Assembly (NCBI GenBank): GCA_963924565.1
Contig: OZ004610.1
Location: 25,792,001-25,856,000 of the forward strand
Direction: 5' to 3'
From: Ascidiella aspersa
Taxonomy: Eukaryota
DNA length: 64,000 nt
Under the pieces are notes generated by a model. The model did not search any database. It saw only the letters and a program-made list of their open reading frames with translations, and was not told where the DNA came from. Each line of letters begins with the position of its first letter. Positions within the stretch are counted from its first letter, which is position 1. Made by a program: the position numbers and the translations under genes. Below, one piece after another: positions 1 through 20,200 of the stretch.

Positions 1-1911
1 TATCTGTGTATGCTGTTTTCAAATAAGAAAGTGGTGGTTCGCGTATGTGGACTCTGTTAAACAGAAGCACTCCATTTCGTTGATATTATCAACAACTTTA
101 AAAATGTTAAACAATTTTTTCCATGAATTCTTGAATGTCAAACTCTAATAGTAACCAACAAGTTTTGGAAAACAAAATATGTTCCTAAAAAAGATTGCAT
201 TTCGCAGTTCGCCTTTGAATTTGTTTGAGGTACCAGTGTTGTAATGGCATAATTCAATGACTTATTAAGTTGGTCTAAATGCAATCAAGTTACTCTTTTT
301 AAATGACTTTACCTGACCTAAGCTTTTGAACCAAATAATTTGCTTGCCATTGTATGTTGCGCTTTTGTATTTTTTTTTATTAGAAACGAGTTTCCCAGAA
401 CTTAAGTTATTTCAAAATGACATGTTTACAACACTGGTGTATACAGAGGAATCTAAACTAGTGATCTTAATGCTAAAAAATGTGCGACGGGTTTTTTTAA
501 TCAAAGTGTTAAATCGGATGGTTGCTAGTTTAACTCACGTACAGGCATATGGCTTAAACTGGCAAAAATGTATGAATTGCTTTCGGGCGCATGGCCTGTA
601 CTTTTGTGTTGATAATAATTAATCAGTCATAGATGTAGCTTAAAAATACTATACCCTGTAAATTAAATGCCCCATTCATATCATTTAAACTAAACGATTT
701 TCTGTTATTTGACAAAGAAGACTTATAATAAGAATAAGTAAGATTGTTAGCTCCGCCTTTGTGGTTGTTATGCATGGGGTGCACAAGTTTTTCTTTGTAC
801 AAACTTGAAGGCCATATGGAAATAAGTAACGGCCAGATATTCTTTGTGCTCGCAGCAATATAAACCACGATGGCAATATAAACGCTTTTCCGACTACACG
901 TACAAAAATCCCCTGAAAAATAGTATGCGACGAGTATACGGGCGCATTAACGAGAAATACAAGTTACACGGGGTTGGTATAACGATTTAATTTTATTAGT
1001 TTTAACGTTATTGATATTGATTTAGATTAACTGGAGTTCTGACGTTAGTTGTTCCGCCCAGCTAAAGTTCTGTCTAATCTTTAATTATAATTTTACACTG
1101 TAAAATTAAATTGTATTAAAAAAAATTAAATTGTAAGTCCAACTGACACTCCAGATTTGCAAAAACTACATTACATGTACTACATATAAGATCTAACTTT
1201 TTGTCTAGGCGTCGGCAGGTATTTATATATTCGCGGCGTGAAAAATCAACAAGTGACCAAAAAAATAAACTTGGTATATATATATAATGCAATAGAATGG
1301 TGACGGTATACAATTAGGGATGTTCGGTACTTGGTATGTTATTTGCGACTTTCGACTTTAAATTCAATATATATATGCTAAGATATTTACCCTTTAAAGT
1401 ACGAAACTTTGCATTGGATCGCAAAACAAGACTGTGATACACAAATGTATTTCCGGATGCCACCCAGTATCGGACGAGTACTGATCCTACCACTTTGCAT
1501 CGGGTAATGACTTAGAAACTAAATTATAGGACATTCCTATATATAAGCAAAGTACACATGGCCATTTGTCATATCATGTGAAAAACTTAAAACTGGTTTA
1601 ACTATAAAGCGATAAATAAAAACAAAGTCGCCCAACTCACAGTTGGCTGTTCAAAGAGTAATTCACGGTTGGCTGTTCAAACAGTAATTTTATGTAATTG
1701 CTGTCAAAAAATCGCTCTTGCTATTTATCAGTCTTTACACATCCGCTTTTAAAATTACGTGATGGTATCAATGAAGGTATAGTTATTAAAACCTTTAAGA
1801 GGTACCGGCGAAAAACGCTGATTGAGGCTATATTGTGTATAGATATGTGTGTTTATGTTATTTACTGTTGAACATCAAATCGTCATCCAAAAGGCGCTAT
1901 ATAGAAGCTAA

Positions 1912-4900
1912 TTACAATGTTGAACTCCTGACGGACAGCGTATGGTTTCTTCCTGGTGCCTTGCTGCTTGCTTTGCAGCAGCAGCAGCAGAAAAAATCCT
2001 TCACTGACTGCCGGAATTTGACGTCCATGAAGCTATAAACAAGTACGTTCACAAGGCTGTAGAGATAAACAAAGATAGCGTTAAGCGATGATATGAACAT
2101 AACGTATGTATGGTTCCATTTTCAAAAAAAGCTGCAAATAGCATTGTTTTGATATAAAAGGGCGGTTGCATTAGAATTATTATTTAATCAAAGTATTGTA
2201 AAATGAAAATCCATAAAACTATTGTAAAGTAAATTCTATTCGCTGGATAAATTAAATTGATTGGTGTATACCAGGGGTGGCCAACCAATCAGTAACCAAG
2301 AGCCGCATTTGTTACTTGGTTAACCGCAAAAAGCCACACGTAACACATGGAAGAATAGAGAATAGCTTATAACTCCATTTTTTACTCACTCCCACAAAGC
2401 GATCGCACGAAACGCGAAAAAGTGTCTTTATTTCGTTAAATAGACAAAATGTTCATTTAAAAAAATACGCGACGAATTGAATAAGGAAATACCCATTTCT
2501 CGATATAATGTGATTTATAAATGTTATTTGGGCAGATTTTTGAGTTTACCTTGTTTCAAAAATATTAAATACAATGACCTCAAGGCAAACAGTCTGAGTC
2601 GGAACCGGCAATAATCCATAACTTAACCAAACGAAATCGAAACATTAAAAAAAAAGTAAGTGCAACATGAGCGTAAGAGCCGCATATATCTCGGTGAAGA
2701 GCCGTATGCGGCTCGCGAGCCGCGTGTTGGCCACCCCTGGTGTACAGTTTTCCTATGTATGTTCTAAAGAGTTTAAAGAATTTTCATGGGGCCATTTTGT
2801 TAAAGATTCCCTTACAAAATGTTATTACACAAAGACCGATGTAAAATAAAAACAAACATATCTGTAATGAGACGGGTCTATTAGCTCAGATCCGTTCAAA
2901 ATGTTATACCTATTTCCATATTATCCAAACCATTATATGCTCTACAAACCGAAAAAACAATGTGCCAGGCCCCAGTCAAGGCGTTGCCCATAACACCAAC
3001 CTGTTAAGCATGGCCAGATAGAACGCGATCACCAGTGGAAGAGCATCGATTGGCAAATTTAAACTTCCGACGTGGCCCTCAATCGACGTGACTACCATGA
3101 GAGGAACTAAAAGCAAAATAGTGTTTCGACTTGTGATGGGGTGTTGCGACGTTGAAGGCTGCCCGGAGGAACAGCCCTGGGTGAACCTATAGTCCAGTGT
3201 TTCTTAACCTGTTTAGCGCTCGTACCTTTTGAGATTTCATGAAATTTTCTCGTACCCCTGTCGAAAAAGGTCGACGGAGTATAGACTTTTCGTCAAGCAT
3301 AAATATGATTTACAAAATTAGGCGAGTTTAGCAAATATACCAAACACCACATACAGGCCTATTGCACGTTTTTACAAGTAGCATCTACTTTTAAGGTAAA
3401 CACTAAAACATTAAAGCCTTGGAAAAACCTTTTCAGTTTTGACACCAACAGCTTTGACTGTGAACAGTTCTTATTGTTTAGCTTTGCCAATTTACCCATA
3501 CATCGTTCTTATTTTAAAAAAATGAAAACATATTTTCGATTAGGAAAACGTCTGTTTTTGAATTTGAAGTATAGGTTCGAAATCGGTACAATTTTGAAAA
3601 TTTTCAATAATCACAAACTGTAATTTAAATCTGAAAACTTTGACAGAAAGTCGTTTTAAAAATAACAAGGCATTATATTACGTAAATATCATAATTTTAT
3701 GATTTATCTCGTCTAATGGATTCAATTTGCAGTAAAATGCCTTTGTGTGCCCATTGCGCAGTTTTAAAGCGGATAAATACTTTCCAAAATATAAAAAAGT
3801 TAAATATATTATATGCATGGATCTGTAATGCAGCTTGATGATAAATCTCAAGCCAAAAAGGCCTAAAAAAGTAAAAAAAAAAATTCTGGGCACACAGCGC
3901 GAGACATCTGAGATGAATGGGCTAAAGGTAGGAAACGCGCAGTTACCATTTTAAGATTACAAGAAATATTCACTGTGAACCTGTTGTTGCTGTAAATCCG
4001 AGCTGCATTATCACCAGCGTGGCGAACATCATCACCTCTCTCTTGTTGCTTTCTTTTCGGTGGCTCTTTGAAGTTTTCAGACTATATGAGAGGATTATTC
4101 CCGTCGCCACCGTTATACATGTCTGGCAAAAACGACGAAGTTGTAAGCAATCCATTAAAATGATCTAATTCCCAGTAAAGTTATTTACAAAACAACTTAA
4201 ATTAAATTAGGTCATGTTCAATTAATGACAAGGCAAGCAGAAGTCCATATTTCATTGAGTCAAGATTTTATACAGTTTTTTTATTGATTCACCAAGTTTG
4301 TAATTCACAGACGTCCCATAATATAACCTAAATTTACTCTGTTTGAAATTTGGAAAACTGGTTCAGGCGCTTGACTTTGCAAAAAAATTTCTCATTGAGT
4401 TCAGCAGTTGTGCTGTTCCAAAATTTTGGACTGTTAAAAGATGAAAGTGGTTCTTTAGTTTTTTGGGGGGCACAGTTTAAAATCGTACCTGAAATCCGTT
4501 TGCAGCGGTGTCATACGTAATATTTTACGACCAATTTCTTTATTATTAAAACCTAACATTATTTTTCGGCCCCAACTCAAACGCTAAAACAGTGTCAAGA
4601 CTATCAATTCAAGATAATAAACGGCTAGACTACTACACGACTGACTGTAGTTGACTTACCATCACCGTGAAGGGCAAAATGCAGTTGAGGATAACTATAA
4701 CCAAGTGAGAGATCGGGTCATCAGTTCCTTCGAAGCTAAATAGGTAGATCACGTGGCGGTATTCGAAGCTGTACACATCCGGAAACCACACTAAAAGTAA
4801 ACCGACAATTTTCATTAGCTAAGAGTTTTTCAAATTGCGCGTCGCGACAATCAGATACGTCGGTTTGAGGCAGTATTGTAAAAAAGTTGTTTTGCATTTA

Positions 4901-7900
4901 AGTTCCAGGCAAGTCATTCGAAAAATAACGTTAGTCCAAGTCACCACTTTTGCCAAAATAACAAGTCCCAGCCCAAGTCAGGTCACTTTGAGAGCAAGAT
5001 TTCATGTCATTGACATAAATCTAAAACGGTTTAACAAAAAAAAATGTAAACCCGTCCGATTATGAGCAATAATTAAAAAAAAATAACAAAATTGCAATAT
5101 ACAGCAAGCAAATTTTCAGCTGAAACATTTGTGACAAATAACTTAATTTTATTGAATATTTTTAAACAAAACTTTAATTTGAACTCGGCCAAGCTATTTG
5201 ACATAATGACCTATAGGTCCAAGTGAAGTCATTTGTCCGAAAGACTCAAGTATAGTCAAGTAATTTTGGTCAAAGTACCTAAGTAATGTCATATCACTTA
5301 AAAACAGTGACTTAAGTTAAGTCACAGCATTCAATCTTGAATAAGATATACTGACGATGCCTTAGTTGGCGAAATATATACATATCTTTTAAGATCTGGT
5401 TAATGTATCTGACCTGAATTGCTAGCTTTGCTAGATTATTTTGCTGTTACTGATCAGGAATTAAGGTCGACATTTATCTTGCAAGGGTCAAGGTGATTTC
5501 TATTATTCACATATTCAGTGCAACATTAAGTCAAGTCCTTAGAACACTGGTTTATGGCGTCGCACATTGATTGCGGTTCTAAACTCATTTGCAGTACCGT
5601 AATGTTTGTGCACCGAAAATAATATCACCTGACGTGTGCATTCAAAATCACGGTTAAAAAAAGAAACTGCAGCAATCAATTTTGATTTTTAGTTATAAAT
5701 AAACAAATAAAAGGCGTCGCAAGAAAAAAAGTTTGAGAATTATTTTACCATAAATAATAGAAAATATCCGATAATATCGAATCGGATACCCGATACCATA
5801 GTAGTATTGCTACCCATACAATACTATAGGTGGTATCTGAACCGATTCAATATCAATGTTAACATAATATTTTCTATTCAAATATTAATGTTAATAAATG
5901 TTGATATAAATATTTTTCTTTTCAATCAATGTTAACATAATATTTTCTATTCAAATATTAATGTTAATAAATGTTGATATAAATATTTTTCTTTTCAATC
6001 AATGTTAATATAATATTTTCTATTCAAATATTAATGTTAATAAATGTTGATATAAATATTTTTCTTTTCAATCAATGTTAATATAATATTTTCTATTCAA
6101 ATATTAATGTTAATAAATGTTGATATAAATATTTTTCTTTTCAATCAATGTTAACATAATATTTTCTATTCAAATATTAATGTTAATAAATGTTGATATA
6201 AATATTTTTCTTTTCAATCAATGTTAATATAATATTTTCTATTCAAATACCAAACGATTCAATACCAATGCTAATACAATATTTTTTAAGTTAGTATAGG
6301 TTAACAACTTGGGGTATCTAGACATTTTTTAGGTAAAAGCAAAAATTTTATTATAACCTGGAAAACTTTAACTACGAACGTTTCATTTGACTAACGCTGC
6401 TGGTTTAAGCAAAGTAATGACGTCATTTAGTATCAGACCGGGTCTCGATACATTTTTTATCAAAACATCGGGTATCGTTATCGGAACAAAATCTCAAGTA
6501 TCGAACATCCCTATTAGGTAATATGCTCTTCAATTGCAAACACTCACATGGTGTTAGGGCGAGCAGCAGCGAAATAAGCCAAACGGCCGCGATCTCGGCG
6601 TATACCACCTTGCGGCTTTGTTGCTGGTATTTCAGCGGCCACTTGACGGCGTAAAAGCGCTGCTGGGCCAGCAAGGCCAGGTGGTAGAGTGACGAACCGA
6701 AGACAAGTAGGTGATAGATGCCAGCCACTTTAGCCCTCGAAGTGTCGTGTAAAGCCAGGATGTAAAGCCAAGTGTCGTATACAGACATGCGCGAAGAATT
6801 GGCGAACTCCGGCAGGGCGACGAAGAAAATCATCAGACCTGGAAACAGACTTGGACAATTATAGACAATTCTCGTTTTGTAACTCAACGATTTCGAGCAA
6901 AATGCGATCGATATTTGTGTTATAGCACATTTTTTTCTAAAGATTTACGATTTGCCCCTGAAACCAATTTCGCCGTTAAATGTAGTTTTGTTAAAAGATC
7001 AAAAAGCGGTGTTGATATGTTTTTCATCCTAAATACACCATGATATGTTTTTGATCCTAATACAAACATTTTGTTCAATTTTATAGTTTTAGCTAAAAAT
7101 TATAGTAGGAGAGAATTTCGTAAATATACCATCGAAGTGTTGTTCATAGCAGTGACAAATTTTCTACAGATATAAAACAATAAACATATAATTAACTAAA
7201 GGGCAGAAACTATTTCTGCGTTGTGGCATTTCGCTAAACACGCCACGATATTGCTGATCAAAACAAAATTACAAGCCCAGTAACAACTAATAATATTTAC
7301 AATCATTAATGCAAGCTTTTATGATTTTGTAAATGAATAAAGAGTTGGTCGAAATGTCATATATGTTATTAACTTCCATATGGTCTTTAAAATTTCTACT
7401 ATACGTCTAACTACAACCTCCAACCATTATGATTCAAAGTAAATTTTAGATGAGGTTATCAACTGTGTAATTTCTCCAAGATAATTGCGGACTTAGCACC
7501 AAGCAAGCGCCAGTCCTTTTAGAAACGAGAATCTCCTACAAATTATAGAAGCACAATTTGCGTTTAAACCTGTAAGCACGTCAGCCACGGCCAGGGACAC
7601 TTTAATCGTGCCGTAACTGCCGGTAAAGTTGGAGTGTCCGGTAGCAAAGAGACATATCACCAGCGAATTGCCCACAACGATAGTCAGGGCGATAAGGGCG
7701 ATGACGACGACGAAGGCGACACCGCCGACCATGCTGCATTCGGCGCAATATCGCAATGGCGTGTGAAGGCAGTTCTGCTCGGTAAGGCGTCCGCAGAACA
7801 CGTTAAAAGTAGTCTGGTTGGAGAGGGTAAACCCAGTAACGCTTGGGTTCACAGCAGCAGCTGTGCTTTGGGCTAAATTCCCGACAAGCTCTTGCAACAG

Positions 7901-7933
7901 CAGCAGCAGTAGAGTTAGAGGAGCCCTTGACAT
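1912..7933 (-). CDS. Orphan rhodopsin-like (class A) GPCR, 6 exons, 392 aa
   Basis: Exons 7933-7570, 6838-6548, 4790-4660, 4122-3981, 3106-3001 and 2056-1912 are GT-AG and phase-compatible (1179 nt). Seven hydrophobic segments with TM1 GN, TM2 SLAVAD, TM3 QRFYAVKWPLKY, TM4 W, TM5 LPF, TM7 NSLVNVLVY, helix 8 KFRQ and a CCCCC tail. Signal-peptide-like N-terminus. Confidence 0.92.
2272..2739. mobile_element. hAT (Charlie/Buster-like) MITE
   Basis: TIR CAGGGGTGGCCAAC / GTTGGCCACCCCTG; degenerate TSD gtgtatac/gtgtacag. Confidence 0.85.
5343..5388 (+). ncRNA. Minimal type I hammerhead ribozyme motif (one stem I mismatch)
   Basis: aagatata-CTGACGA-t-gcc(ttagtt)ggc-GAAA-tata-TA-catatctt. Confidence 0.65.
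5758..6513. mobile_element. MITE (TAGGGATGTCCGAT family) carrying the 73-bp array
   Basis: Left arm ATATCCGATAATATCGAATCGG...GATACC; right end CAAGTATCGAACATCCCTA. Confidence 0.75.
5853..6249. repeat. AT-rich tandem array, about 5.4 x 73 bp, in GPCR intron 2
   Basis: TCAATGTTAA(C/T)ATAATATTTTCT... recurs at 5853, 5926, 5999, 6072, 6145 and 6218. Confidence 0.95.
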
Positions 7934-8329
7934 GTTTGGTTTGCAAAGATGTATGAAAAACAGCTGGTATTCTATACTTTTTTCAACCTGTACATTTCTT
8001 GAAGGTTAAAACATGCTTAGTAACCTGTGGCAATTGTTAATTTCTTGCTCTAGCGTTGACTGTTGCTAAAGGATTCTAATCAGTTGCCTGAACAGTCAAG
8101 CGTATACAGTTCCGACACAGTAGTTTTATAGCGATTATTGCGATTTGGCGAGTATAAAAAAATATTAAGGTAATTAGAAGGCACTGTATACAGACAAATT
8201 GTATTAAAGTCTTTTGGTAAGAAGGTGACAGATGCAAAAACGTGAAAAAATTGCGTCAGTCACACACTATCGCCTTTTACTCGCGTTGTTTTGTTTACTT
8301 TTTGCATTTCAATTGTTTTCATTTATACT

Positions 8330-8367
8330 TTGACCTGAAGAAGCAAAGTTGTGCGAAAGCTTGTCAA
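8330..8367 (+). ncRNA. Minimal type I hammerhead ribozyme motif
   Basis: ttgac-CTGAAGA-a-gca(aagttg)tgc-GAAA-gc-TT-gtcaa: full catalytic core, 5-bp stem I, 3-bp stem II and palindromic loop-less stem III (AAGCTT). Confidence 0.75.
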
Positions 8368-10480
8368 TTCATCAATACAATTTGTCTTTATATATTGCCA
8401 CTTGATTAACCTATAGAATTAGACAAATACGGACATTTGCAAAAAAATATTGTCACTTGTAAAATGCTAGCTTGGTATCTAATGCCCATCTTGGTAATGT
8501 TCGTACCCAACAGCTTTCATGAATTGGCCGGTTTGTATACCACCAAGTACGATTAGTAAACTATTTATCTTTTCAATTTCGTTCGCTCAACACGGACAGA
8601 GTACAATTGCGGAACGTGTGAATCAACGCGAGTAAAACGTTCGTAACAGCAGGATAACGAACATTCGGTCGTTTATCATTTCGACAGAGCTGATAGATTT
8701 ACGTTTACACGCTTTTGAAAACAGCACTTACGGGCGTCTAAACTTATTATTTTAACCTCTAACTCATTTTTACCATTAAAAGTTAGACTACTCTATAATG
8801 AAGTCACAGATTCTAATGACTCGACTTGACGTCTTTTGGGCAAACTGATTTGACTTAAGTTTTTTTCATCTTGCAATTAAGTCATTTTATCGAATGACTC
8901 TGGAATTAAATGTTTAATAAAAACATTTTTTTATAAAATTAGTCTTTTTTATATTTTTTACTTTTAATAATTTGCTTACGAATTTGTGTTTGTGTTATAA
9001 TTTAGTTATTGCTCACTTATAGTTTTAGAATTTCCACACCAAGTGTAATAGCTTATCGTTTATTTTTTAAACATTTCACAATGACTTGACTTGGAGTTCA
9101 CTTATTCTAATACTGACTTAGACTGGGAAGTGACTTGTTATTTATTGCAAACCTACTTGACTTGGAACTAAGGATTTTACAAATAACTTAACTTAACCTG
9201 ATTTCAAAATTATTTGTGTAAAACACTAAAAATGTTCACAACATTGTTAGTTTCGACGGCACTCAAGTAAAGCAAAACCTTTCCCTAAATTTAACTTGAT
9301 GGGCTCTAACCTAGAGTGCTATGTTACAAACTCGATGGCAAACTGTCGCTTGACAAAGCTTAATAGCGTGGCCGTTAACCGTGCTGGTTCCTATAAACCG
9401 ACACACGAATACAACATCCGCTCTATGTTGTGTAGGTTTAAACCTGAACGGAGCTGCACTGCCCAATTTCTCGCATAAGAAGATACCTTTGATGAGATGA
9501 TGTCGATTTATATTTTCAAGCTACGTTACTTACAGGCCCGTGTATAGTCTGGTACCGATTACGAAATAGTATCCAAGCTTAGTTTAAGAAGAGTGGAACA
9601 TCTGCAATTAAAATGGAATTTCACTTTCGAAGTTTAAATGTATTTCGGTCACAATAATTGATGATGATACAAGTGCGTGTCGAAAACGTCTTTTATTAAC
9701 ATAATCGATTTACACGATCTGCTCGGCTTTGACATTTATTTTTAAGATAATACCTGATTATTTATTTTTATTAAAATAATTTGTGCGACTCGAGGACACG
9801 CGAGAAAATAGCACACGAACAGCGAAAAGACATTTCGGTTTTCGAGTCAAGCTGTCCATATTGCTTTGTTGCAAAATGTTAAAGGACGCCTGACTCTGTA
9901 AGCGCACGAGAAGTAGTATTGATTTAATGGTTTTCGCATGTTGCGTACTTTTACAGGCAATAGTCTTCTAAACAGACTTCTGGTCAGAAATTAACGCTAT
10001 GTCAAATCGCAAAATTCTGCCAAATCGCCCTCCATCAAATTTGCAACCAATCAGGTCACTGCTGGCGACGAAAAAACAATGTTTCTGTTTTTTCTTTTCG
10101 GATAACACCGCGTATTTTTGCGGGCGGAAAGCCAGCTTGTGAACAGTGTTGAAAAACAAGTCAATCACCAAGTCACAGCACAATAGTCTAGCAAAGCTAG
10201 TAATTCAGGTCAGACACATTTTATAGATGTTATATTAAGTAAAATAACATATTATTTATATTTTACCAATAAACGAATTATTCATTCGAATTAATATGAG
10301 CTGACGATGCCCATATATATATTATTGACCTGAGTTACTATCTTTGTAAGAATACTCTGCGGCTACTGATCAGGAATTGAGAAATTGAGGTCGACAGTTA
10401 TCTGTCAAGGGTCAAGGTTGTTTCCAATAACACATATCCAGTGCAACATCCACCAACTATAGAAAGAGAAGTGGATGTGT

Positions 10481-12984: not shown

Positions 12985-15900
12985 TAGTGATGTCCGATAA
13001 TAACGAATTGGTTTTGATACCAGATACAAAGTGTCAGTATCGGCACTCGTCCGGTACTACATTTTATCGGAGCGATGCGATACCAAAGATATAAAATGAC
13101 TTCAGCCATTATTAGTTATTTAACGCAGTGATTTGTAGTTTAAAAGGTAAATTTACCAAAACACAGTGGGACAACTATCTATAGGTAACAGTATCAGCAC
13201 TCGTCCGGTACTACATTTTATCGGAGCGATGCGATACCAAAGATATAAAATGACTTCAGCCATTATTAGTTATTTAACGCAGTGATTTGTAGTTTAAAAG
13301 GTAAATTTACCAAAACACAGTGGGACAACTATCTATAGGTAACAGTATCAGCACTCGTCCGGTACTACATTTTATCGGAGCGATGCGATACCAAAGATAT
13401 AAAATGACCTCAGCCATGATTAGTTATTTAACGCAGTGATTTGTAGTTTAAAAGGTAAATTTACCAAAACACAGTGGGACAACTATCTATAGGTAACAGT
13501 ATCGGCACTCGTCCGGTACTACATTTTATCGGAGCGATGCGATACCAAAGATATAAAATGACTTCAGCCATTATTAGTTATTTAACGCAGTGATTTGTAG
13601 TTTAAAAGGTAAATTTACCAAAACACAGTGGGACAACTATCTATAGGTAACAGTATCGGCACTCGTCCGGTACTACATTTTATCGGAGCGATGCGATACC
13701 AAAGATATAAAATGACTTCAGCCATTATTAGTTATTTAACGCAGTGATTTGTAGTTTAAAAGGTAAATTTACCAAAACACAGTGGGACAACTATCTATAG
13801 GTAACAGTATCAGCACTCGTCCGGTACTACATTTTATCGGAGCGATGCGATACCAAAGATATAAAATGACTTCAGCCATTATTAGTTATTTAACGCAGTG
13901 ATTTGTAGTTTAAAAGGTAAATTTACCAAAACACAGTGGGACAACTATCTATAGGTAACAGTATCAGCACTCGTCCGGTACTACATTTTATCGGAGCGAT
14001 GCGATACCAAAGATATAAAATGACTTCAGCCATTATTAGTTATTTAACGCAGTGATTTGTAGTTTAAAAGGTAAATTTACCAAAACACAGTGGGACAACT
14101 ATCTATAGGTAACAGTATCAGCACTCGTCCGGTACTACATTTTATCGGAGCGATGCGATACCAAAGATATAAAATGACTTCAGCCATTATTAGTTATTTA
14201 ACGCAGTGATTTGTAGTTTAAAAGGTAAATTTACCAAAACACAGTGGGACAACTATCTATAGGTAACAGTATCAGCACTCGTCCGGTACTACATTTTATC
14301 GGAGCGATGCGATACCAAAGATATAAAATGACTTCAGCCATTATTAGTTATTTAACGCAGTGATTTGTAGTTTAAAAGGTAAATTTACCAAAACACAGTG
14401 GGACAACTATCTATAGGTAACAGTATCGGCACTCGTCCGGTACTACATTTTATCGGAGCGATGCGATACCAAAGATATAAAATGACTTCAGCCATTATTA
14501 GTTATTTAACGCAGTGATTTGTAGTTTAAAAGGTAAATTTACCAAAACACAGTGGGACAACTATCTATAGGTAACAGTATCGGCACTCGTCCGGTACTAC
14601 ATTTTATCGGAGCGATGCGATACCAAAGATATAAAATGACTTCAGCCATTATTAGTTATTTAACGCAGTGATTTGTAGTTTAAAAGGTAAATTTACCAAA
14701 ACACAGTGGGACAACTATCTATAGGTAACAGTATCAGCACTCGTCCGGTACTACATTTTATCGGAGCGATGTGATACCAAAGATATAAAATGACCTCAGC
14801 CATTATTAGTTATTTAACGCAGTGATTTGTAGTTTAAAAGGTAAATTTACCAAAACACAGTGGGACAACTATCTCTAGGTAACAGTATCGGCACTCGTCC
14901 GGTACTACATTTTATCGGAGCGATGTGATACCAAAGATATAAAATGACCTCAGCCATGATTAGTTATTTAACGCAGTGATTTGTAGTTTAAAAGGTAAAT
15001 TTACCAAAACACAGTGGGACAACTATCTATAGGTAACAGTATCAGCACTCGTCCGGTACTACATTTTATCGGAGCGATGCGATACCAAAGATATAAAATG
15101 ACTTCAGCCATTATTAGTTATTTAACGCAGTGATTTGTAGTTTAAAAGGTAAATTTACCAAAACACAGTGGGACAACTATCTCTAGGTAACAGTATCGGC
15201 ACTCGTCCGGTACTACATTTTATCGGAGCGATGCGATACCAAAGATATAAAATGACTTCAGCCATTATTAGTTATTTAACGCAGTGATTTGTAGTTTAAA
15301 AGGTAAATTTACCAAAACACAGTGGGACAACTATCTATAGGTAACAGTATCGGCACTCGTCCGGTACTACATTTTATCGGAGCGATGCGATACCAAAGAT
15401 ATAAAATGACTTCAGCCATTATTAGTTATTTAACGCAGTGATTTGTAGTTTAAAAGGTAAATTTACCAAAACACAGTGGGACAACTATCTATAGGTAACA
15501 GTATCAGCACTCGTCCGGTACTACATTTTATCGGAGCGATGTGATACCAAAGATATAAAATGACCTCAGCCATTATTAGTTATTTAACGCAGTGATTTGT
15601 AGTTTAAAAGGTAAATTTACCAAAACACAGTGGGACAACTATCTCTAGGTAACAGTATCGGCACTCGTCCGGTACTACATTTTATCGGAGCGATGTGATA
15701 CCAAAGATATAAAATGACCTCAGCCATGATTAGTTATTTAACGCAGTGATTTGTAGTTTAAAAGGTAAATTTACCAAAACACAGTGGGACAACTATCTAT
15801 AGGTAACAGTATCAGCACTCGTCCGGTACTACATTTTATCGGAGCGATGCGATACCAAAGATATAAAATGACTTCAGCCATTATTAGTTATTTAACGCAG

Positions 15901-16321
15901 TGATTTGTAGTTTAAAAGGTAAATTTACCAAAACACAGTGGGACAACTATCTATAGGTAACAGTATCAGCACTCGTCCGGTACTACATTTTATCGGAGCG
16001 ATGTGATACCAAAGATATAAAATGACTTCAGCCATTATTAGTTATTTAACGCAGTGATTTCTAGTTTAAAAGGTAAATTTACCAAACCACAGTGGGACAA
16101 CTATCTATAGGTAACTGAACATTTCAAACGCTCAACAAAATTTTGCCTATATAATCCCGTCAAAAATACTATTGGACTTTTTAAATTTTTTAAATTTGCT
16201 TATTTGATAAATATGCTTTATTTGACTAAAGGAGTTTTTTGGTATCCGATGGAATTAGAATACGTTTGCTATAAAATATATCGGTATCAAAATGAAATGT
16301 CAAGTATAGCGAACATTCCTA
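12985..16321. mobile_element. MITE (TAGGGATGTCCGAT family) expanded by the 154-bp array
   Basis: Left end TAGTGATGTCCGATAAT and right end AAGTATAGCGAACATTCCTA match the shorter copies at 52271-52638 and 31826-32220. Confidence 0.8.
13035..16114. repeat. Tandem array, 20 x 154 bp
   Basis: Unit CAGTATC(G/A)GCACTCGTCCGG...CTATCTATAGGTAA with period 154; 3080 bp equals exactly 20 units. Only a few variable sites. Confidence 0.98.
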
Positions 16322-17264: not shown

Positions 17265-20200
17265 TTACTGTCGTTTAAAGGTTCGTTTGAAAGTCACGTT
17301 CGCCAAAGAAAGGACCTATAAAAAATACTAATTAAATATTTTTAATTTGTGATAAAACATTCAGAATAATAAAATACACTTTAAGAGAAACAGTTTTTAT
17401 ATAGATGTAAAAACTATTGCCAAAAAGTCAATTTTAGATTAATATATGAAATGATAGATTTTTAAGTGTCTAACAACAACGTGTTCTATTTTGGGGTTCT
17501 AGGGGAATACTTTCCCACAAATACCCCGTTGAACAATATTTTTCGAGCATGAAATATTTCTTGAACGACCATTGACCATGCCCATGGACAATTTATTTTT
17601 TTATTCGTAAATATATGTCACCCCACCACAGTTGCGCCGCCATTTGTTTTTAAAATTCGTTTACTATCCATCCAATAGATTCTTTGCTTATTTCCCGTCA
17701 TAAATATTGAACGCTATTAAAAAATACTTAATAAAAAATGCAAGCGTTGGAAGACGAAACAGTCGTAAAACGTGAGGGCGCAGCAAATCTGACAAATTCT
17801 CCCCATTGTACAACAATTTTTGGAGAGAGAATAACACCAAAAAGTACGTGAATTCTCCTTGCCGCAAACTTTTAAGACGATAAAAAACGCCTTTTTTTAA
17901 TTCATACGTTAGTAGTTGGTAACCTTTATTCATTGGCTGGGGCGGATCTAGAAATTTTGTTAGGCGAAAGCGGGAAATTTTTTTTTTAGATATGATGTCA
18001 CAAAGTTACGTCATGCTGTGACCGTTTGATTTTTGTGTAACTTTTGTTGCATTGGTCGGAGTTTATAAATGGGAGATTAGTCATTATAATTGGGGGAACA
18101 CTGCACATTACCACGGCATATATTAAAAAAAAGCAAGAAATTGCCGCGTTTTCGAGGAGGTTTTTGCTGTGTTCATACGCCACGGCTTCACAAATTTTTT
18201 TGAGAACATGAGATCTTAAATTAACCTCCCAGTTGTTTTAAAACCGGGCATCAACTGCTGCCTGACACAGTCCAAAGCCTAACAGAAATAACATTGCAGG
18301 AATTATTAGGATATAGAGAACATTGTAACTAAATATAGGTATTTAAATTCCAAAGCATAATTGCCCAAACGTATCGCCGTTCGCAACCGACTTTTCAGGC
18401 GTGCCGAGACCTGGCCGCCTGCCCATGTTCCTTACGTCATAAAGCAGGTCACCGTCCACCTCACGACACGCTTGAATGGTGGCGCCGGGCACTTGATATT
18501 CGCCGAGCAGTTTTTCTCCCTCCAGCCGGACAACCGTCTGCGAAAAGATTCCGATCCTATGGTCAGTTCTTTATCCTTGTTATTAGATAATCTAACATCA
18601 AAGCTGATAGTCGATATCAGTTTCTAATATGGGATAACTTTCAGATCTAGGGATATCCGATGCTTGACACTATATTCCGTAACCGATACCCAATATTTTG
18701 GAAAAGGAGGATCACGATTCGACCCAATACTAAATGAAGTCACTTCCTTGCTGAAACAAGGAAATTAGATAAAATTGAAACGTCGAAAGGACTTTGTCGG
18801 CAGTTGTTACCGTACAATATATCTTTAAACGAATTTACCGTTTAACGTATAGAATTACAGCGTTGTATCGCAAATCATGGATAAAATTGTTATATTAATT
18901 TGATATCGGTTCGGCGCCGATACCAACCTATAGCATCCGATAAGTACCGATACTACTATTTTGCACGGTGTCGGCTCCGATCCGATATTATCTGACATTC
19001 CTGTAGCCCGATCCGTTTTTGTGGTATATCCAAACAAAGTATAGGGCTGTCATAATAAGCGATCAAACGCTTTTAATTAGTTGACTTGTTATAGTGAAGC
19101 AAGCTAAGGAAAGCAAAACTTCTGCAATTTTTCGCCTTGCTTGCTTGTCCCACACTCTAAGTAGGTCGACTGAATACGGTAAAACTATTTTAAAGGCTAC
19201 AAATGAACTACTAGTGTTCATTACTACTTTTTTCAAGCAATGACTTGATGCTTTACTTTAATCCTAGTTGGATCCACAGATTTCGCTAAAGCTATTCCAA
19301 AAACACCCAGGTCTGCGTCTACAACAGTGGTTCTCAAAGTAGTTTAACTTGCGGGACTAAAAAAATTTTAAAATTTCGTGCCACACTTGAACAGAAAACA
19401 TAGTAGCTTTACAGTCTCCCTCAACACACGAAAACTTTATGCAAACGTATTAATATTATCAGTTTTTTAATCGATAGTGCGTATTCAAGTCTAAAATAAT
19501 TGCGTAACTTATTTTCGAAATTTACTAATAGTTGTACGGCATCCTCAACAATCGTTAAAGTCACACAGTTTGAAAATCACCGGTCTAGAATATTGACATG
19601 TTGTCTACACTACGTCACAAGGACTGAATGTGGCGAGTTGTGAATTAAGCAGGGGTCATCCTAATAACAAGTTAAAGTAAAAATATGCAAATCCAGCTTC
19701 ATAATGCAAACTAAAATTGAAAATGAAATTACTGTGATGCTATTTACCTCCATTTGCTTTTTTCCGGGTCCGGTGATTTTTGCCGGCTTCCCGATTTCGA
19801 ACTTGTCGATCCAAGACTGCGGCCCAGTGCTGGTTTCCACCGTAAAGTGGTCGCCGTTTTGCTCTATGCGGAGAATAACCGGGGCGCTTTTGCCTGCCTG
19901 TACATAATTTGCTGGCACGCCTGTCAAAAAAGTTATTACCGGTATTGTGAAAAAGAGTACCTTTTCATAAAGAGTACCTTTTCACAAATTTAACGTGCAA
20001 AAATCTAATGTTATTCAGGTTATTGGGCTAAAATTAACTTTACAATAAAAACTTTATTCTTCTTTAATTGGTAATTTACTACCTTTTTAGAAATCGCTAA
20101 AAAACAGATATCGCCTAAAATCACGTTGAATTTGCTACATTAACAGGGTTAAAGTTTGTTCCGTTCCACGCCTGCTGATTTTACATTGAACCTGCAATCG

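What the first reader, a model, noticed from the sequence alone, without database searches (positions are those of the whole stretch)
8277..8637. Intact minimal hammerhead upstream of the GPCR, flanked by an inverted repeat
Seen: the best-preserved ribozyme in the window (8330-8367), with all core bases, a perfect 5-bp stem I, one extra nt after A9 and self-complementary AAGCTT in place of stem-loop III; predicted cut after CUU (8362). TTTTACTCGCGTTG (about 8276-8289) is the reverse complement of CAACGCGAGTAAAA (about 8624-8637). Known: loop-less stem III hammerheads cleave as dimers, and Penelope-like elements often leave inverted partial pLTRs. Inference: a second ribozyme family 400 bp upstream of the GPCR ATG, on the strand that a divergent transcript would use.
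Basis: partly seen in the sequence, partly recalled or inferred. Interest (0 to 1): 0.7.

Follow-up and report, generated by a model that had tools for sequence, protein, structure and literature searches.

The report
Decayed Penelope retroelement fragment with hammerhead
The hammerhead-ribozyme motif is really there, but it lies in a 274-base, partly decayed end-fragment of a Penelope-like jumping gene with hundreds of copies in this genome, on the strand opposite a receptor gene, and is likely an inert leftover of an old insertion.

Summary
The motif at 8330-8367 is a real minimal type I hammerhead. It is the ordinary pLTR ribozyme of a Penelope-like retroelement (PLE) family: 338 exact pattern matches in the genome, control 0; longer copies encode RT plus GIY-YIG. 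The insertion is 8167-8440. It is bounded by an 11-nt duplication (8156-8166, 8441-8451) and absent from both paralogous GPCR loci. This copy is old: about 13% from older copies, the fourth stem II pair lost (-0.4 versus -3.6 kcal/mol), and no excess conservation of the ribozyme (Fisher p 0.79). The ribozyme is antisense to the GPCR and has no cis dimer partner. New member of a known kind; low interest.

The parts
8156..8166 (+). Left target-site duplication AAAAAAATATT (8-11 nt, because the element's own 3' end also ends in AAA)
   Evidence: Identical 11-mer at both ends; the paralog loci hold one such A/T-rich site and no insertion
8166..8205 (-). 5'-inverted partial pLTR of the same insertion, lacking the 3' tail; the true PLE inverted repeat, pairing with 8374-8413
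   Evidence: the repeat finder I2, 40 nt, 78%; 88% to a young family copy over 34 nt; the two arms differ at 9 of 40 positions
8206..8249 (.). 44-nt unexplained filler at the inversion junction
   Evidence: No alignment to 10 family loci above shuffled controls; no other match in the genome
8250..8267 (+). Upstream pLTR remnant, followed by a deletion of about 45-50 nt relative to the family
   Evidence: Local alignment to L019; shares GCGTCAGTCACACAC with the older copy L002
8268..8443 (+). 3' end (pLTR) of the Penelope-like element, including the tail 8414-8443
   Evidence: 80-84% identical to the 39 best other places; contiguous in longer copies with an RT-GIY-YIG ORF
8330..8367 (+). Minimal type I hammerhead ribozyme; predicted cut after 8362; stem II weakened
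8441..8451 (+). Right target-site duplication
8275..8288 (+).
8624..8637 (-).
   Evidence: Aligns with paralog loci L032 and L033, which match the left arm at only 8 and 9 of 14 positions
7572..7933 (-). First coding exon of the neighbouring rhodopsin-family GPCR (context only)
   Evidence: ORF; PF00001 hit on the next exon, E 4e-08; two paralogs about 81-82% identical

Best explanation
This is the 3' end of a Penelope-like retroelement, 5'-truncated and 5'-inverted, inserted 234 nt upstream of a GPCR start codon, and its hammerhead is a passenger of the element's terminal repeat that is likely inactive in this copy. Shown: membership in a dispersed family, an RT plus GIY-YIG ORF in longer copies, the target-site duplication, the empty site in paralogs, the inverted tail-less piece, and decay of the copy. 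Inferred from published PLE biology: the element's endonuclease nicked an A/T-rich site, reverse transcription started near the RNA 3' end and stopped after a few hundred bases, and a second, inverted priming 30-40 nt further in made the 5' piece. In the parent element the ribozyme would fold as a dimer through AGCU and cut after CUU, probably only with help from the element's protein. This copy has no ORF, no same-strand partner and a weakened stem II, and lies antisense to the GPCR, so it cannot cut the GPCR mRNA. The 14-nt inverted repeat is most likely a coincidence between the element and host DNA.
For: 338 exact matches of the family hammerhead pattern, reversed control 0. Copies extend 5' into an ORF with RVT_1 (E 3e-10) and GIY-YIG (E 2e-07), both above the curated cut-off. 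An exact 10-15 nt duplication flanks 19 of 30 loci; 17 of 30 have a 5' inverted piece, 14 of those 17 ending 31-47 nt short of the 3' end, as described for PLEs (passages). Both GPCR paralog loci run from the 8150 side to the 8440 side with no insertion. Decay: 23 of 176 positions differ from the majority of 11 older copies, 4 of 38 inside the ribozyme and 19 of 138 outside, Fisher p 0.79. The stem II change at 8346 is in 0 of 39 other copies and raises the hairpin from -3.6 to -0.4 kcal/mol. In context (8300-8400) the predicted fold does not form the hammerhead, z +1.2. The other hammerhead in the window (5351) has a different stem III palindrome.
Against: All 15 core and palindrome positions are unchanged in a copy 13% diverged (chance 0.12), so weak selection is not excluded. 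The left junction is also present in a contig of a second sample with about 7% differences (X2 record 12; same study), so the insertion has persisted. The 14-nt inverted repeat is unlikely for this one element (2 of 1500). No RNA data could be laid, so expression was not tested. No intact pLTR-ORF-pLTR master copy was found: the longest copy read, L046, is truncated and frameshifted. The 44 nt at 8206-8249 are unexplained.
Confidence: 0.92

Rival explanations
1. Co-opted ribozyme: the insertion was retained because the hammerhead cuts or ends a divergent (plus-strand) transcript from the GPCR promoter, dimerising in trans with other family RNAs.
For: Core intact and stem I perfect; 397 nt upstream of the ATG on the divergent strand; left junction shared with a second sample; hundreds of potential trans partners with the same AGCU.
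Against: No excess conservation (p 0.79). Stem II lost a pair kept by the family. The perfect stem I comes from one G-to-A change at a CpG, also seen in 3 of 39 other copies. Both paralogous GPCRs lack the element. Published minimal hammerheads show no monomer and low dimer activity (PMC4209133), and one PLE hammerhead cut only with the PLE protein (PMC11167929).
Confidence: 0.04
2. The 14-nt inverted repeat was made by a short template switch (or gene conversion) that copied 8275-8288 of the element into host DNA 335 nt away. This concerns the repeat only and is compatible with the best explanation.
For: All 5 (versus L033) or 6 (versus L032) differences from the paralogs within 8624-8637 favour the match to the element; such a repeat is rare for this insertion (2 of 1500).
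Against: The cluster is not significant against L033 (p 0.07-0.11) and another 14-nt window (8674-8692) has as many differences; it is p 0.03-0.05 against L032. The changes cannot be polarised with only two sister paralogs. About 0.2 such repeats are expected per window by chance. The one method paper consulted searched templates only within 100 nt (PMC7954356).
Confidence: 0.25
3. One reading: 8277-8637 is one unit, a ribozyme element delimited by inverted partial pLTRs.
For: Both 14-mers exist; PLE insertions do carry inverted partial pLTRs.
Against: The insertion ends at the duplication 8441-8451; 8444-8489 and 8493-8773 align with insertion-free paralogs; 8460-8760 has only those two other matches in the genome. 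Family inverted pieces sit at the 5' side and stop near the tail boundary, as 8166-8205 does.
Confidence: 0.02
4. The hammerhead is a chance match.
For: No Rfam hit; unremarkable folding energy, z -0.13.
Against: 338 genome matches, control 0; fixed position in the pLTR of RT-GIY-YIG copies; it shows the four non-descriptor features reported for PLE minimal hammerheads except covariation, which was not tested.
Confidence: 0.01

Closest known systems
Minimal type I hammerheads (min-HHR) of metazoan Penelope-like elements (Cervera and De la Pena 2014, PMC4209133)
   Same: [quoted passage not shown]
   Different: Stem II is short (4 bp in the family, 3 bp here) against 7-8 bp in the Schistosoma families; N17 is U across this family. 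This family was not found described, but no search for it by name was possible.
Canonical EN+ PLEs with a Zn-finger linker (Neptune/Nematis type; Craig et al. 2021, PMC8557442)
   Same: [quoted passage not shown] Nearest database proteins are about 50% identical, many from turtles.
   Different: No tree against named clade references was built, so Neptune versus Nematis is not settled. Clear 10-15 nt duplications at non-microsatellite A/T-rich sites were seen, rather than microsatellite targeting.
Poseidon element PAc of Anolis (Frangieh et al. 2024, PMC11167929)
   Same: Tail signature explained by two RT start sites; hammerhead in the pLTR.
   Different: Poseidon lacks the linker Zn-finger; there the hammerhead overlaps the ORF start and was tested in vitro (needs protein, dispensable for insertion). 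Nothing was tested biochemically here.
Non-LTR retrozymes (tandem hammerhead repeats derived from PLE pLTRs; bioRxiv 10.64898/2026.07.22.740005)
   Same: Non-coding, hammerhead-bearing, PLE-derived, dispersed monomers.
   Different: This copy is a single monomer with PLE junction hallmarks, not a tandem array.

Membership tests
PLE minimal type I hammerhead | Core C3 U4 G5 A6 N7 G8 A9 / G12 A13 A14 A15.1 / U16.1 H17 | tested here: met
   8335-8341, 8355-8358, 8361-8362
PLE minimal type I hammerhead | Extra nucleotide between 9 and 10.1, and G10.1-C11.1 pair | tested here: met
   A8342; G8343-C8354; features as listed in PMC4209133
PLE minimal type I hammerhead | Palindromic, loop-less stem III (dimer-type) | tested here: met
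   AGCT 8358-8361
PLE minimal type I hammerhead | Stable stem II | tested here: inconclusive
   Family 4 bp, -3.6 kcal/mol; this copy 3 bp, -0.4 kcal/mol
PLE minimal type I hammerhead | Covariation across families | not tested
   Copies in hand are too close, and several were fetched by a pattern that fixes the core
PLE minimal type I hammerhead | Self-cleavage as dimer or with PLE protein | not testable with these tools
   Needs in vitro transcription or RNA end mapping
Penelope-like element (EN+) | Single ORF with RT then GIY-YIG, upstream of the pLTR | tested here: met
   In family copy L035/L046: PF00078 and PF01541 above cut-off; absent from the window copy, which is 5'-truncated
Penelope-like element (EN+) | CCHH motif in the endonuclease | tested here: met
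   Read by eye in the L035 ORF: C..C between VYAIT and IYIG, then H (RMNGH) and H (GEHF); definition
Penelope-like element (EN+) | 5' truncation with inverted partial pLTR and 30-40 nt tail | tested here: met
   17 of 30 loci inverted, 14 of 17 with a 31-47 nt offset; window 8166-8205
Penelope-like element (EN+) | Target-site duplication and empty site | tested here: met
   19 of 30 loci with 10-15 nt duplication; paralog empty sites
Penelope-like element (EN+) | Full-length copy with two direct pLTRs, N-terminal DKG region and 5' intron | tested here: inconclusive
   No full-length copy among those read; L046 is truncated
Neptune/Nematis clades | CX2-5CxxC linker between RT and endonuclease | tested here: met
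   CGKSRCELC in L022 and L035 ORFs; definition
Neptune/Nematis clades | RT phylogeny with named references | not tested
   No clade-labelled reference sequences in hand; one search hits carry no clade names
Non-LTR retrozyme | Tandem array of hammerhead-bearing units | tested here: not met
   No tandem repeat at the site; a single family hammerhead in the window

The most novel reading that the evidence does not exclude
An old PLE fragment was domesticated at this GPCR promoter: its hammerhead, completed in trans by RNAs from the hundreds of sister copies, cuts the divergent promoter transcript, while a template switch wrote a 14-nt copy of the element into host DNA that can close a 335-nt loop over the ribozyme. 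GPCR-locus RNA would then be coupled to retroelement activity.
Probability: 0.03. Interest if true: 0.6.

Novelty: new member of a known kind. Interest (0 to 1): 0.12.

Why it matters
As found, it matters little: one more decayed copy of a known retroelement-ribozyme association. Its modest value is as a clean example (paralog empty sites, target-site duplication, tail-less inverted piece) of a PLE family with a Zn-finger linker, and as a pointer to a better test substrate elsewhere in the genome: a 46-nt hammerhead unit in tandem triplicate (L054), where a cis dimer can form. If the novel case held, it would be an example of trans-completed ribozyme regulation at a host promoter.

Tried and rejected
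Rfam scan of the window: no hammerhead family at E <= 5; one weak mir-57 match at 18986. Pfam on the C-terminal 340-aa fragment and a 125-aa fragment gave nothing; the 487-aa ORF did hit. PDB sequence search: 0 matches. Sequencing runs: no RNA holder listed, which is no evidence on expression; X1 is probably the source sample, so it is not independent. Looking for an insertion-free allele in contigs: no joint skipping 8167-8451 was listed (table cut, contigs only). A 39-nt contig at double depth over 8624-8662 and a second path diverging left of 8619 suggested a second copy or allele; the assembly has one copy of the 16-mer and no match to the diverging letters, so this stays unresolved. The diverging letters do not fit an inversion between the two 14-mers (compared by eye). 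Origin of 8206-8249: none found. Sigma-70 scan: not applicable to an animal genome, counts at chance. Alignment A1 has one row (L019) on the wrong strand; its conservation counts were not used. In one search, 2 of 41 loci (L058, L061) gave no qualifying hit and were dropped; six of the kept copies came from a pattern that fixes A at position 7, so the count 6 of 39 for that letter is biased. Earlier findings: two look-ups returned nothing. No literature search aimed at this specific family was possible, so 'undescribed' is not claimed; paper supplements were not read.

Full report
Observation. The hammerhead is present as described. A descriptor scan of both strands found two motifs in the 64 kb, at 5351 and 8335. 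At 8330-8367 there is a 5-bp stem I, the full core, an extra A after A9, a 3-bp stem II closed by G10.1-C11.1, the palindrome AGCT in place of stem III, and U17 at 8362. The 14-mer and its reverse complement lie at 8275-8288 and 8624-8637. Rfam does not detect the motif. Folded alone it gives stems I and II (z -0.13); in 100-130 nt of context other pairings win.

What it belongs to. A search of the own genome with 8150-8660 gave 48 matches from 40 scored of 1686 candidates, nearly all to 8268-8443 at 80-84% identity. A pattern for the family hammerhead has 338 exact matches, the window's included, and 0 for the reversed control. The copies share a fixed 3' end and have variable 5' ends. The longer ones run upstream into an ORF with RVT_1 and GIY-YIG above Pfam's cut-offs, a CX4CxxC linker and the CCHH residues. 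Craig et al. give the linker as a mark of the Neptune and Nematis clades and CCHH as common to canonical EN+ PLEs (passages of the preprint and of PMC8557442). The best of 781 database relatives are about 50% identical, many from turtles. The longest copy read (L046) is truncated and frameshifted, so no intact master was seen.

Limits of the insertion. Two paralogous GPCR loci on the same contig (L032, L033) align with the window on both sides and lack 8154-8439 or so. The 11-mer AAAAAAATATT is at 8156-8166 and 8441-8451. In a survey of 30 loci, the window included, 19 have an exact 10-15 nt duplication and 17 have a 5' inverted piece; 14 of those 17 stop 31-47 nt short of the 3' end (the other three values are probably mis-assigned BLAST ends). 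That is the PLE 'tail', which Frangieh et al. trace to two RT start sites (passages of PMC11167929). In the window the inverted piece is 8166-8205, pairing with 8374-8413. It is followed by 44 unexplained bases, an 18-nt pLTR remnant, a deletion of about 45-50 nt, and the 176-nt 3' end with the hammerhead.

Age and state of this copy. Its best identity to 39 aligned copies is 82.5%. Against the majority of 11 older copies it differs at 23 of 176 positions: 4 of 38 in the ribozyme, 19 of 138 outside (Fisher p 0.79). The chance that all 15 core and palindrome bases escape is 0.12. The two arms of its own inversion differ at 9 of 40. The change at 8346 (0 of 39 other copies) breaks the fourth stem II pair, -3.6 to -0.4 kcal/mol. 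The 'perfect' stem I results from G-to-A at 8366, where the family has a G-U pair. One contig of a second sample carries the left junction with 6 substitutions and 3 gaps in 113 letters, so the insertion is older than that divergence; both samples are of one study.

The right arm is host DNA, 173 nt beyond the right duplication. The paralogs match the left arm at 9 and 8 of 14 positions. Against this insertion, 2 of 1500 simulated flanks and 0 of 248 real 500-nt chunks reach 14 nt (5 reach 13). Across the window 7 perfect repeats of 14 nt or more within 500 nt are seen against a null mean of 0.2 in 15 simulations; one is the PLE's own arm pair, one is this, and five were not examined. The 5-6 differences from the paralogs within the 14-mer give p 0.07-0.11 (L033) and 0.03-0.05 (L032), a second window is equally rich against L033, and the direction of change cannot be set. 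I put chance at about three in four and a template switch at about one in four. Either way it is not a pLTR.

How it works. Cervera and De la Pena (PMC4209133; parts 1-2 of 4 read) describe the same architecture in metazoan PLEs, mostly as single motifs from truncated copies, with no monomer cleavage and low dimer cleavage in vitro. In the Anolis element the hammerhead cut only with PLE protein and was not needed for insertion in vitro. By inference the parent element's ribozyme processes multimeric element RNA as a dimer through AGCU. This copy lacks an ORF and a same-strand partner, and lies on the plus strand while the GPCR is on the minus strand, so it cannot cut GPCR mRNA even if it falls within the 5' UTR. 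Expression was not testable: no RNA holder was listed.

Comparison and verdict. It works like, and by the features tested is, a PLE pLTR minimal hammerhead; cleavage and covariation were not tested, and the clade is Neptune/Nematis-like by linker only. It is not a retrozyme array (abstract and Results part 1 of bioRxiv 10.64898/2026.07.22.740005 read). PMC7954356 was seen in passages only; the other papers only as listings. New member of a known kind; interest 0.12.

Noticed in passing
window 5329-5560 (hammerhead core at 5351): A second, unrelated and much younger hammerhead repeat family (40 scored of 2251 candidates, best hits 95-99% identical, many with inverted partial copies). Long A/T stem I, AUAUAU palindrome; the window copy has a C where 7 of 7 fetched copies have T next to the predicted cut. 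PLE-like by structure; no ORF seen in the 7 loci.
   Followed up: partly
window 10171-10220 (minus) and 10326-10449 (plus): An older, hammerhead-less copy of the 5351 family with its own inverted piece.
   Followed up: no
L054:550-687 and L053 (G000 C2, about 28.62 Mb): Three tandem 46-nt units of the family hammerhead inside one insertion, present twice in inverted orientation about 8 kb apart; the tail is on the inverted piece here. A natural cis-dimer arrangement, like a tiny retrozyme array.
   Followed up: partly
window 8619-8662: In run X1 a 39-nt contig at double depth covers 8624-8662 and a second path enters it from unrelated sequence left of 8619, right at the edge of the 14-mer: possibly a structural allele not in the assembly.
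   Followed up: partly
window 13035-16115: Tandem array of 20 copies of a 154-nt unit, 98% matches; the relaxed scan found no hammerhead in it.
   Followed up: no
window 5852-6249: Tandem array of 5.5 copies of a 73-nt A/T-rich unit within the span of the GPCR gene.
   Followed up: no
window 2270/2726, 16352/16665, 34334/34595, 38449/38791, 40976/41215: Five perfect inverted repeats of 14-18 nt, 240-460 nt apart, likely MITE termini.
   Followed up: no
window 1900-9800 versus G000 C4 4.80-4.83 Mb (L050-L052): The GPCR has two paralogs in tandem about 21 Mb away on the same contig, 66-87% identical in coding and upstream blocks alike.
   Followed up: partly
G000: At least 100 further matches to the PLE RT fragment at 26-45% identity, some in open frames of 800-880 aa and one tandem run with a 2671-nt period on C9 near 23.49 Mb: other, possibly intact, PLE families.
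   Followed up: no
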